DNA from: the human T2T-CHM13v2.0 reference genome, Homo sapiens
Assembly (NCBI RefSeq): GCF_009914755.1
Contig: NC_060925.1
Length of the DNA: 64,000 bases
Direction: 5' to 3' (one strand)
Shown here: positions 52,521-55,977 of the stretch, piece after piece
How the letters are laid out: each line of letters begins with the position of its first letter
Position numbering within the stretch: position 1 is the first letter of the stretch
Position numbers and translations under genes: made by a program
The notes under the pieces: generated by a model
Databases searched by the model: none
What the model was told of the DNA's origin: nothing
What the model saw: only the letters and a program-made list of their open reading frames with translations

Positions 52521-52730
52521 AGTTTCTTCCCTTTAATGACCAGGAAAAGAAAAAAATAAAAATGGGCAAGCAATTCAAATAGATATTTCTCCAGAGAAAA
52601 TACAGAAATGGCCAGTAAGCATGAAAAGATGCTCAGAATTGTTCGTAATTTGGGAAATGCAAATCAGAATACATTAAGATACCACTTCATACCCACTAGG
52701 ATGGCTAATTTTTTTAAAAAAGACAATGAC

Positions 52731-54458
52731 CCTCTCCCTCTCCCTCTCCCCACGGTCTCCCTCTCCCTCTCCTTCCACAGTCTCCCTCTGATGCTGAGCT
52801 GAAGCTGGACTGTACTGCTGCCATCTCGGCTCACTGCAGCCTCCCTGCCTGATTCTTCTGCCTCAGCCTGCCGAGTGCCTGCAATTGCAGGCGCGCGCCG
52901 CCACGCCTGACTGGTTTTCGTATTTTTTTGGTGGAGACGGGGTTTCGCTGTGTTGGCCGGGCTGGTCTCCAGCTCCTAACCGCGAGTGATCCGCCAGCCT
53001 CGGCCTCCTGAGGTGCCGGGATTGCAGACGGAGTCTCCTTCACTCAGTGCTCAATGTTGCCCAGGCTGGAGTGCAGTGGCATGATCTCGGCTAGCTACAA
53101 CCTCCACCTCCCAGCCGCCTGCCTTGGCCTCCCAAAGTGCCGAGATTGCAGCCTCTGCCCAGCCGCCACCCCGTCTGGGAAGTGAGGAGCGTCTCTGCCT
53201 GGCCGCCCATCATCTGGGATGTGAGGAGCCCCTCTGCTCGGCTGCCCAGTCTGGGAAGTGAAGAGCGCCTCTTCCCGGCCGCCATCCTGTCTAGGAAGTG
53301 AGGAGCGTCTCTGCCCAGCCGCCCATCGTCTGAGATGCGGGGAGCACCTCTTCCCCGCCACCCCGTCTGGGATGTGAGGAGCACCTCTGCCCGGCCGCGA
53401 CCCCGTCTGGGAGGTGAGGAGCGTCTCTGCCCGGCCGCCCCGTCTGAGAAGCGAGGAGCCCCTCCGACCAGCAGCCGCCCCGTCTGAGAAGCGAGGAGCC
53501 CCTCCGCCCAGCAGCCGCCCCGTCTGAGAAGTGAGGAGCCCCTCCGCCTGGCAGCTGCCCCGTCTGGGAAGTGAGGAGCATCTCCGCCCGGCAGCCGCCC
53601 CCTCTGGGAGGGAGGTGGGGGGCAGCCCCCGCCCGGCCAGCCGCCCCGTCCGGGAGGGAGGTGGGGGCTCAGCCCCCGCCCGGCCAGCCGCCCCGTCCGG
53701 GAGGGAGGTGGGGGGTCAGCCCCCCCCCCGGCCAGCCGCCCCGTCCGGGAGGGAGGTGGGGGGTCAGCCCACGCCCGGCCAGCCGCCCCGTCCGGGAGGG
53801 AGGAGGGGGGTCAGCCCCCGCCTGGCCGCCGCCCCGTCCGGGAGGTTGGGGGGCGCCTCTGCCCGGCCGCCCCTTCTGGGAAGTGAGGATCCCCTCTACC
53901 CGGCCACCACCCCGTCTGGGAGGTGTACCCAACAGCTCATTGAGAATGGGCCATGATGACGATGGCGGTTTTGTGGAATAGAAAAGGGGGAAAGGTGGGG
54001 AAAAGATAGAGAAATCAGATTGTTGCTGTGTCTGTGTAGAAAGAAGTAGACATGGGAGACTTTTCATTTTGTTCTGTACTAAGAAAAATTCTTCTGCCTT
54101 GGGATGCTTTGACCTATGACCTTACCCCCAACCCTGTGCTCTCTGAAACATGTGCTGTGTCCACTCAGGGTTATATGGATTAAGGGCGGTGCAAGATGTG
54201 CTTTGTTAAACAGATGCTTGAAGGCAGCAGACTCGCTAAGAGTCATCACCACTCCCTAATCTCAAGTACCCAGGGACACAAACACTGTGGAAGGCTGCAG
54301 GGTCCTCTGCCTAGGAAAACCAGAGACCTTTGTTCACTTGTTTATCTGCTGACCTTCCCTGCACTATTGTCCTATGACCCTGCCAAATCCCCCTCTGTGA
54401 GAAACACCCAAGAATGATCAATAAAAAAAAATAAATAAATAAAATAAAATAAAATAAA
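52731..54458 (+). mobile_element. Full-length SVA (C/D-like)
   Basis: CCCTCT hexamers, Alu-like domain, GC-rich VNTR (~53100-53920), SINE-R, AATAAA at 54420 and an A-rich tail. Confidence 0.97.
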
Positions 54459-54971
54459 GAAAGAGCTGAACCTGTTTGTCCCTGGGAAACAGAAACTGTG
54501 GAAAAGGGGCTCTACGGCCACTATTTTCCTAAATTTTGTATAACTATCTCTGAAAACATCTATCTGCAGAACTTTGATAAAAACTACAAATTGAAACCAG
54601 TTTTAAATTTCAATTTCCAAATAGTTATAGCTTCAGTAAAGTGGAATTCTTACCATCATAAATATGATGGAATTATGCAATATATTCCAACATTTCCATT
54701 TAACATATTGGACAGCCACTTTCATAGATTTCGTATGCAAATCTGCCTGCTTGCTAAAATCAATACTCCTGGTACTTTTGCAGTCATTTACAGATATGCA
54801 CAAAGCAGAGAAAAATCTGAGGTTCCCAACACACATGTTCCCAGCAAAGGCTGAACAAGATGACACTATCTTCTTAAATAAGACAGCTATTATACCATAA
54901 ACAAGGGTCCTTTTTGAGGTGTAGTGTCCTGTTTTTGGCTTTTTTTTCTTTTTGTTGGGATTTTGTTGTTT

Positions 54972-55275
54972 TATTTTATTTTATTTTATTTTTGAGACAG
55001 AGTGTAGCTGTTGCCCAGGCTGGACTGCAGGGGCATGATATCAGCTCACTGCATCCTCCACCTCCCGGATTCGGGTGATCATCCTGTCTCAGCCTCCTGA
55101 GCAGCTGCAATGACAGGTGCACGCCACCGCATCTGGCTAATTTTTTTGTATTTTTAGTAGAGACAAGGTTTCACCAGGTTGGCCAGGCTGGTCATGAACT
55201 TCCAACCTCCAGTAATCCACCCGCCTCAGCCTCCCAAAGTGCTGGAATTACAGGCGTAAGCCACCGCACCCGGCC
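54972..55275 (-). mobile_element. Diverged AluS within the transduced segment
   Basis: (TTTTA)n tail; degenerate TSD GAT(T/G)TTGTTGTTT. Confidence 0.9.
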
Positions 55276-55305
55276 TAGATGTTGTTGTTTAAAAATGCCC
55301 CCCCA

Positions 55306-55555
55306 GACCGGGCGCGGTGGCTCACAAGGTCAGGAGATTGAGACCATTCTGGCCAACATGGCGAAACCCCATCTCTACTAAAAATGCAAAAATTAGCTGG
55401 GCGCGGTGGCACGTGCCTGTAATCCCAGCTACTCGGGAGGCTGAGGCAGGAGAATCGCTTGAACCAGGGAGTCAGAAGTTGCAATGAGCTGAGATTGCGC
55501 CACTGCACTCCAGCCTGGCGACAGAGTAAGACTCCGTCTCAAAAAAAAAAAAAAA
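55306..55555 (+). mobile_element. AluSc-like with a left-arm deletion, within the transduced segment
   Basis: GGCTCAC joined directly to AAGGTCAGG; CCTGGCGACAG diagnostic; TSD AAAAATGCCCCCC. Confidence 0.88.
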
Positions 55556-55977
55556 AAAAATGCCCCCCAAGTGTAGTGCTGAAGTGCGGTCTAGTGCTCC
55601 TAAGTGCAAGAACGATTTAATGTGTCTTACAGAGAAAATACTGTGTTAGGTAAGTTTCATTCAGACATGAATTATAATGCTGTTGGTTGTGAGTTCAATG
55701 TTAACAAAATTAACAATAAAATTAAATAAGGTGACTTTAAATAGAAAAAAAAGACAATGACAAATACTGACAAAGATGTGGAGAAATTTGAATCTTCATG
55801 TACTGCTGGTTGGAATATAAAATGGAAATCAGTTTATAACTCAGCAATATACCAAAGAAAAAGGAAAACATGTGACCACACAAAAATTTTCATACAACAG
55901 TTCATTGCAGCATTATCTATAATAGCCAAAAGAGTGGAAACCCAAATGTCCATCAATTGATAAATAGATTAAATTTG

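What the first reader, a model, noticed from the sequence alone, without database searches (positions are those of the whole stretch)
52716..55761. SVA with a ~1.3-kb 3' transduction carrying a DNA transposon and two older Alus
Seen: the 15-bp sequence before the SVA (AAAAAAGACAATGAC, at a TT/AAAA endonuclease site) does not recur after the SVA's own A-tail. It recurs 1.3 kb later at 55747-55761, where the host L1 resumes. The extra segment ends ~25 nt after AATAAA/ATTAAA (55715-55726), in the middle of a MER82-like element, and holds two diverged AluS copies from a family older than SVA. Known: SVAs can read through their own poly(A) signal and transduce 3' flanks. Inference: this DNA was copied from another locus, and it moved an otherwise immobile DNA-transposon fragment into the last ANKRD45 intron. 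The source SVA's TSD should be visible right after the inner tail (about AAAGAAAGAGCTG).
Basis: partly seen in the sequence, partly recalled or inferred. Interest (0 to 1): 0.7.

Follow-up and report, generated by a model that had tools for sequence, protein, structure and literature searches.

The report
SVA transduction from a vanished source
A jumping element (SVA) in the last ANKRD45 intron carries a 1.3-kb copy of chromosome 7 DNA, but no SVA sits at that chromosome 7 site in this genome, so the parent element was likely lost; this is a known type of event, and a few A-to-G changes in the copy possibly record RNA editing.

Summary
Confirmed: a full-length SVA (52731-54458) plus 1,288 extra bases (54459-55746) sit between two exact 15-bp target-site copies and interrupt one old L1. 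The extra DNA has one close paralogue in CHM13, chr7:79,067,531-79,066,253 (minus strand; 29 substitutions in 1,278 columns). The donor continues 170 bp to the DNA transposon's end, so copying ran from chr7 to chr1. The donor has no SVA. It is a scar-free site with an endonuclease-type TT/GAAA exactly at the junction. A published table lists the chr1 SVA as SVA_D1/C-like, shared with chimpanzee, and lists no SVA at the expected donor position in chimpanzee or gorilla. Best reading: ordinary 3' transduction in the human-chimp ancestor from an unfixed source that was later lost; such sourceless transductions are described in print. Extra lead: the two inverted Alus fold into a 212-pair hairpin, and every non-CpG change assignable to the chr1 copy there is A>G (3-6 sites; none among 230 As outside). 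This may be fossil ADAR editing, but few sites are independent. New member of a known kind.

The parts
52555..52730 (+). Old host L1 fragment, left of the insertion (includes the 5' TSD)
   Evidence: 76-83% identical to other genomic copies, 39 listed besides itself; colinear with the right flank in 9 of 9 related copies
52716..52730 (+). 5' target-site duplication AAAAAAGACAATGAC at a TT/AAAA endonuclease site
52731..52790 (+). SVA CCCTCT hexamer region (short)
   Evidence: TRF period 6 at 52730-52772
52791..53150 (+). SVA Alu-like domain
   Evidence: 3.0-3.9% from the 24 nearest copies fetched; limits from the Levy 2017 table, community SVA_C_2
53151..53930 (+). SVA VNTR (about 40-bp and 47-bp units)
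53931..54419 (+). SVA SINE-R
   Evidence: 91.5-95.8% pairwise identity to other SVA copies; Levy 2017 communities SVA_D1/D1a in human, SVA_C2 for the chimpanzee orthologue
54420..54458 (+). SVA's own poly(A) signal and patterned (AATAA)n inner tail, read through
54459..55746 (+). 3'-transduced segment copied from chr7:79,067,531-79,066,254 (minus strand)
   Evidence: 29 substitutions in 1,278 aligned columns; only close paralogue found
54459..54712 (+). Non-repeat chr7 flank; begins GAAAGAGCTG, the likely start of the lost source's TSD
   Evidence: 20-mer exact only at chr1 and chr7, plus one 1-mismatch hit elsewhere; donor junction TT/GAAA
54713..54965 (.). First part of a TA-targeting DNA transposon (MER82-like; name recalled) with a degraded terminal repeat at 54713
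   Evidence: 68-91% matches at many loci; colinear with the second part in other copies; end motif compared with L006
54974..55275 (-). Alu 1 (antisense), nested in the transposon; holds A/G differences at 55073-55075, 55129, 55177
55305..55560 (+). Alu 2 (sense, with an internal deletion in the left arm), nested 30 bp from Alu 1; A/G differences at 55386 and 55450
   Evidence: inverted pair folds with 212 inter-Alu pairs
55561..55746 (.). Second part of the DNA transposon, cut 170 bp short of its end; carries AATAAA (55715-55720) and ATTAAA (55721-55726)
55747..55761 (+). 3' target-site duplication; its A-run merges with whatever is left of the second poly(A) tail
55762..55970 (+). Old host L1 resumes

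Best explanation
The insertion is one SVA plus 1,288 bp of chr7 DNA inside a single 15-bp target-site duplication, and it most likely arose when a now-lost source SVA at the chr7 site was transcribed past its own poly(A) signal and the RNA was copied by L1 proteins into the last ANKRD45 intron. Shown: the shared TSD, the interrupted host L1, a single donor, the direction of copying (the donor has the whole transposon), the end 21-27 nt after poly(A) hexamers, an SVA-free donor with an endonuclease-type site at the junction, and a listed chimpanzee orthologue of the chr1 SVA. Inferred: a C/D1-type SVA once sat at chr7:79,067,531 (likely an early PHTF2 intron, antisense), was still polymorphic in the human-chimp ancestor, produced this offspring and was then lost by drift or lineage sorting; the second poly(A) tail shrank into the A-rich TSD. 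No effect on ANKRD45 is shown.
For: Exact TSD pair; L1 continuity in 9 of 9 related copies. One close paralogue found with both ends as queries and with a junction 20-mer. The donor continues 170 bp to a TA-flanked transposon end. Homology starts right after TT at TT/GAAA (bottom strand TTTC/AA); TT[AG]AAA occurs at 0.19-0.23% of positions, and TTTC/AA is listed for SVA and L1 disease insertions (PMC4859970 Table 1, passages). No VNTR and only one 26-nt weak SINE-R hit 5 kb away in the 20 kb around the donor. Non-CpG divergence outside the Alus is 7 of 711 (0.98%), which fits a date near the human-chimp split (about 1% recalled) and the orthologue in panTro3. The expected donor positions panTro3 78.32 Mb and gorGor3 74.96 Mb have no listed SVA; the nearest minus-strand elements are about 250 kb away and species-specific. 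Precedent: 16% of transduction-bearing polymorphic SVAs have no traceable source (PMC12593883 section 10).
Against: The source SVA itself has not been seen in any genome, so its existence is inferred. There is no untemplated second poly(A) tail beyond the TSD's As. The donor has an A-rich run just upstream of the junction (10 nt identical to the inner tail pattern), which leaves room for a template-switch reading. The ape lists come from old, gappy assemblies (gorGor3, panTro3), and the projection uses one anchor 5.3 Mb away. The chr1 SVA was not found in the Damert 2018 SVA_D table, so the subfamily call rests on one source.
Confidence: 0.85

Rival explanations
1. Template switch: L1 reverse transcriptase started on an unrelated chr7 RNA, antisense to PHTF2 and ending at the transposon's poly(A) signal, then jumped onto the tail of a separate SVA RNA. 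No SVA ever sat at chr7.
For: No SVA at the donor in CHM13 or in the chimpanzee and gorilla lists. A-rich sequence upstream of the donor junction resembles the inner tail. A template switch was proposed for an SVA-CKS1B chimera (PMC12593883 section 9).
Against: The junction falls exactly on an endonuclease-type site found at about 0.2% of positions. A full 39-nt patterned tail separates SVA and flank, whereas the published template-switch case was argued from the absence of such a tail. No promoter is known for such a chr7 RNA.
Confidence: 0.08
2. The source SVA was fixed at chr7 and later removed precisely, by recombination between its target-site copies, instead of being lost as an unfixed allele.
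For: It would give the same scar-free site. Damert 2018 names precise deletion as a less likely alternative to lineage sorting (PMC6139936, part 1).
Against: It needs a rare event, either before the human-chimp split or twice, because the chimpanzee list also lacks an SVA at the expected place.
Confidence: 0.04
3. Two steps or internal priming: the chr7 segment arrived separately by DNA-level capture or a second insertion into the SVA tail; or a longer read-through RNA was primed internally at TAGAAA and not at a poly(A) tail.
For: No separate poly(A) tail at the 3' junction, and 2-3 As shared between donor and target. Internal priming is a described insertion type (PMC4859970, passages).
Against: One TSD pair encloses both parts and no second TSD is seen. 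The end lies 21-27 nt after poly(A) hexamers, the usual cleavage distance (distance range recalled). Internal priming would change only the 3' end and still needs a source SVA.
Confidence: 0.03

Closest known systems
SVA-mediated 3' transduction (Xing et al. 2006, recalled and not readable here; Hancks and Kazazian 2016, PMC4859970, passages; Kirby et al. 2025, PMC12593883, sections 9 and 10)
   Same: Full-length SVA, inner tail, flank from another locus ending after a downstream poly(A) signal, one TSD pair at an L1 endonuclease site, intronic donor, TE fragments in the flank.
   Different: The second A-tail is not distinct. The event is old (shared with chimpanzee) and not one of the human-specific polymorphic E/F events in the recent surveys. 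No siblings.
Transductions with a lost or untraceable source (16% of transduction-bearing insertions, and the chr13 SVA_D source of the CKS1BP group, in Kirby et al. 2025; lost source elements in Damert 2018, PMC6139936)
   Same: The donor flank is present, the SVA is absent, and the source is inferred from the offspring.
   Different: Here the loss appears to date from around the human-chimp ancestor, and the source is also unlisted in chimpanzee and gorilla tables.
SVA_D1 / SVA_C boundary group (Levy et al. 2017, PMC5640379, Datafile S1, community 22)
   Same: This SVA is catalogued there: hg19 chr1:173581711-173583401+, 1,690 bp, orthologue panTro3 chr1:152093269-152094790.
   Different: The rows seen end at the SINE-R and say nothing of a transduction or a donor.
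ADAR editing of inverted Alu pairs (PMC4365171, passages) and APOBEC G>A editing fixed in retroelements (PMC2873906, passages)
   Same: Long inverted-Alu duplex; A>G changes on the transcribed strand; no G 5' of the six candidate sites.
   Different: ADAR edits are normally not inherited; here they would have been written into the germline by reverse transcription. Orecchini et al. (PMC5224506, passages) found no editing of L1 RNA itself. There are far fewer sites than in a hyper-edited cluster.

Membership tests
SVA retrotransposon | Order hexamer, Alu-like, VNTR, SINE-R, poly(A) signal and tail | tested here: met
   catalogued as SVA in Levy 2017
SVA retrotransposon | Subfamily C/D1 diagnostic positions | tested here: inconclusive
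   Levy 2017 gives SVA_D (D1/D1a SINE-R, C_2 Alu-like) for human and SVA_C2 for the chimpanzee orthologue; not found in the Damert 2018 SVA_D table; diagnostic positions were not scored here
SVA 3' transduction | One TSD pair enclosing SVA and flank at an L1 endonuclease site | tested here: met
SVA 3' transduction | Flank maps to another locus, where it continues into native sequence | tested here: met
   chr7 paralogue, continues 170 bp to the transposon end and beyond
SVA 3' transduction | Inner A-tail between SVA and flank | tested here: met
   54420-54458
SVA 3' transduction | Downstream poly(A) signal shortly before the 3' end | tested here: met
   hexamers 27 and 21 nt (and 34 nt in the donor) before the end
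SVA 3' transduction | Second, untemplated poly(A) tail | tested here: inconclusive
   8 A in all, 6 in the TSD and 2 matching the donor; it cannot be told from a decayed tail
SVA 3' transduction | Source SVA, or its empty endonuclease site, upstream of the donor flank | tested here: met
   No source SVA in CHM13; the empty-site form is met: TT/GAAA exactly at the junction
SVA 3' transduction | Empty chr1 site in outgroup primates | not testable with these tools
   No ape or monkey genomes held; Levy 2017 lists no orthologue in gorGor3 or ponAbe2, which is weak evidence
MER82 (TcMar-Tigger-type DNA transposon) | Match to the family consensus | not testable with these tools
   No Dfam or Repbase library; the name is recalled
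MER82 (TcMar-Tigger-type DNA transposon) | Terminal inverted repeats and TA target duplication | tested here: inconclusive
   1 of 14 other copies passed a strict test (L006, 16 of 20 nt, TA on both sides, 555 nt); the donor's right end is TA-flanked and similar, its left end is degraded and GA-flanked
ADAR-edited inverted Alu RNA | Long double-stranded RNA | tested here: met
   Predicted fold of the donor sequence: -311 kcal/mol against -175 +/- 6 for 15 doublet shuffles; 212 inter-Alu pairs
ADAR-edited inverted Alu RNA | Strand-specific A>G excess confined to the duplex | tested here: inconclusive
   7 A/G differences among 148 Alu As, none among 230 outside; Fisher p 0.023 for 4 sites, 0.003 for 6; strand test p 0.08 to 0.02. 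Three sites are adjacent, 3 are ambiguous in polarity and 1 favours a chr7 change
ADAR-edited inverted Alu RNA | G depleted 5' and enriched 3' of edited sites | tested here: inconclusive
   0 of 6 sites have a 5' G against 33 of 148 background As (chance about 0.22); 1 of 6 has a 3' G

The most novel reading that the evidence does not exclude
The chr1 copy is a germline fossil of an ADAR-edited RNA: the read-through transcript folded its two inverted Alus into a long duplex, ADAR converted several As to inosine, and L1 reverse transcriptase fixed them as A>G in the genome of the human-chimp ancestor. Transductions that carry inverted Alus would then be a dated, heritable record of germline RNA editing, made here by a source SVA that no longer exists.
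Probability: 0.35. Interest if true: 0.6.

Novelty: new member of a known kind. Interest (0 to 1): 0.33.

Why it matters
As a transduction it is ordinary: it marks a lost SVA source allele near PHTF2/TMEM60 and dates the event to about the human-chimp ancestor, one more case of lineage sorting among SVA sources. No effect on ANKRD45 is shown. The editing lead matters more if it holds. It predicts that donor-offspring pairs with inverted Alus show a strand-specific A>G excess already present at insertion, which can be tested across all L1 and SVA transductions with ape T2T genomes, and it would show RNA editing entering the germline genome.

Tried and rejected
Sibling copies: searches with the 5' end (40 of 63 candidates scored), the 3' end (40 of 851 scored) and a junction 20-mer gave only chr1 and chr7, so a transduction family is not supported. 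Chimpanzee SVA at panTro3 chr7:78,070,561 (minus) as the source: rejected; it is chimpanzee-specific pt_SVA_D6 and about 250 kb from the expected place. Gorilla SVAs at gorGor3 chr7:74,699,959 and 76,106,703 (minus): rejected; gorilla-specific and about 256 kb and 1.15 Mb away. Reverse direction (chr1 as donor): rejected; only chr7 has the full transposon. Ectopic Alu conversion as the cause of the Alu differences: no close donor among the 64-71 held Alus per query (best 80-88%), and 2 of the 3 chr1-state motifs counted were absent from them; only held loci were examined. A>G excess in the SVA's own Alu-like domain: not seen; 1 of 10 near-private differences is A>G and 3 of 24 copies share it. 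Literature: ANKRD45 with SVA gave 2 unrelated papers; five searches on ADAR editing and retrotransposed or transduced copies listed no paper on A>G fixed in transductions, judged from listings and passages of three papers. Xing et al. 2006, which surveyed SVA 3' transductions in the reference genome (recalled), was not held, so it may already list this locus. The supplements of Chu 2023, Halabian 2022 and Kirby 2025 were not searched, and Levy 2017 file 3 could not be searched.

Full report
Observation. The 15-mer AAAAAAGACAATGAC occurs exactly at 52716-52730 and 55747-55761 and nowhere else in the window; 5 matches at up to 2 mismatches were found against 0.45 expected. Between the two copies lie an SVA (hexamer, Alu-like domain, VNTR, SINE-R, AATAAA and a patterned tail to 54458) and 1,288 further bases. 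The flanks belong to one old L1: aligned separately to 9 related copies they are colinear in all 9, with the single-TSD spacing exact in 5 and off by 3-10 nt in 4. SVA and extra DNA therefore arrived as one unit at a TT/AAAA site.

Donor. A genome search with 54459-54940 found one close match, chr7:79,067,050-79,067,531 on the minus strand at 99% (40 of 63 candidates scored). The 3' end gave the same locus at 98% and otherwise only 77-83% transposon copies (40 of 851 scored). A junction 20-mer is exact only at these two places. Homology runs from 54459 to 55747, with 29 substitutions in 1,278 columns. At chr7 the DNA transposon continues 170 bp to a TA-flanked end, so chr7 is the donor. Its two halves are colinear in other copies, so both Alus were inserted into one element. 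The name MER82 is recalled; only 1 of 14 other copies passed my strict test for terminal repeats and TA. The donor lies about 16 kb from a CpG island, between a 133-aa Tmemb_185A-family ORF on the minus strand and PHTF-family exons on the plus strand. I read these as TMEM60 and PHTF2 (names recalled), which would put the donor in an early PHTF2 intron, antisense.

The source is missing. The 20 kb examined around the donor hold no VNTR and only one weak 26-nt SINE-R hit 5 kb away. The junction reads CAATT/GAAAGAGCTG, bottom strand TTTC/AA. That site type is listed for SVA and L1 insertions (PMC4859970, Table 1 passages), and TT[AG]AAA occurs at 0.19-0.23% of positions. This is what an empty allele looks like. 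Levy et al. 2017 (PMC5640379; outline and Datafile S1 rows seen) list the chr1 SVA as hg19 chr1:173581711-173583401, RepeatMasker SVA_D, communities D1/D1a and C_2, with an orthologue in panTro3 and none in gorGor3 or ponAbe2. Using an SVA_B 5.31 Mb away as anchor, the donor projects to panTro3 78.32 Mb and gorGor3 74.96 Mb. Neither list has an SVA there; the nearest minus-strand elements are about 250 kb off and species-specific. These assemblies are gappy, so this is weak evidence. Non-CpG divergence outside the Alus is 7 of 711 (0.98%), close to the recalled human-chimp value.

Mechanism. Most likely a C/D1-type SVA inserted at the chr7 site in the human-chimp ancestor, was transcribed through its own poly(A) signal to hexamers inside the transposon (27 and 21 nt before the end), and the RNA was copied by L1 proteins into the last ANKRD45 intron, antisense to the gene. 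The offspring is kept in human and chimpanzee; the source allele was lost. Shown are the TSD, donor, direction, end position, empty donor and listed chimpanzee orthologue. Inferred are the source element, its loss and the decay of the second tail: of 8 As at the 3' junction 6 are TSD and 2 match the donor. Rivals are a template switch from a chr7 RNA onto an SVA RNA (precedent in PMC12593883 section 9, but argued there from a missing inner tail, which is present here), precise excision of a fixed source, and internal priming or two-step capture.

A/G signal. The substitutions are uneven: 19 of 555 columns in the Alus against 10 of 723 outside (Fisher p 0.02). Seven have A at chr7 and G at chr1, all within the Alus (148 As), none among 230 As outside. 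Polarised with 82-85 other Alus, 55073, 55074 and 55386 are chr1-derived. 55129 is nominally chr1-derived, but the chr1 state is a CpG seen in 8 of 82 Alus, so decay at chr7 is about as plausible. 55177 cannot be polarised; 55075 and 55450 match the Alu majority at chr1 and favour a change at chr7. No T>C in the Alus is chr1-derived, and no chr7-derived change in the Alus is A>G; treating sites as independent gives Fisher p 0.018 to 0.005 for this branch contrast. The donor RNA is predicted to form a duplex of 212 inter-Alu pairs (-311 against -175 +/- 6 kcal/mol for 15 shuffles); 55075 and 55129 face a C, and none of the six candidate sites (55450 left out) has a 5' G, as ADAR prefers (PMC4365171, passages), though that has a chance of about 0.22. 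Against: three sites are adjacent and may be one event; the strand test gives only p 0.08 to 0.02; the chr7 Alus also carry many derived changes, so the pair is mutable on both branches; with about one A>G expected, 2-3 independent events are not rare (Poisson p 0.26 and 0.08); the idea was formed while looking at the same alignment; and L1 RNA itself was reported unedited (PMC5224506, passages). I put inherited ADAR editing at about one in three.

Comparison with what is known. SVA 3' transduction is established, 49% of 3' events carry TE sequence, and 16% of transduction-bearing polymorphic SVAs have no traceable source (PMC12593883, sections 9 and 10). Lost source elements are also invoked for SVA_D2 and SVA_E (PMC6139936, part 1 and passages). 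The SVA itself is catalogued. I found no paper linking it to this flank, but the 2006 survey of reference SVA transductions was not held and several supplements were not searched. Five searches listed no report of A>G editing fixed in transduced DNA; the library lacks most subscription journals.

Verdict. Observation confirmed, interpretation supported, with the addition that the source has vanished and no siblings were found. New member of a known kind, interest 0.33. The editing reading (probability 0.35, interest 0.6 if true) can be settled by comparing seven bases in ape assemblies.

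Noticed in passing
window 54974-55560 and L013 (chr7:79,066,440-79,067,020): Two Alus inserted head-to-head 30 bp apart at almost the same point of one DNA transposon copy. The pair differs about 2.5 times more between the two paralogues than the flanks do, on both branches.
   Followed up: partly
window 55305-55335: Alu 2 lacks roughly 40 bp of its left arm, apparently deleted between short TCAC repeats; the deletion is also in the chr7 donor, so it predates the transduction.
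   Followed up: no
window 55711: The first of the donor's two AATAAA hexamers is changed in the chr1 copy; the second is intact.
   Followed up: partly
window 52100-52525: An old Alu inside the host L1 has a tail expanded into a (GGAA)n array of about 26 units at 52415-52519.
   Followed up: no
L025 (chr7:130,788,297-130,791,734): An SVA relative shows the last 187 nt of the SINE-R query matching twice in tandem, a likely 3' duplication or second SVA end.
   Followed up: no
Levy 2017 Datafile S1: panTro3 chr7:78,070,561 and gorGor3 chr7:74,699,959: Independent chimpanzee and gorilla SVAs, both on the minus strand, project to within about 6 kb of each other near hg19 chr7:77.19 Mb by the same anchor.
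   Followed up: no
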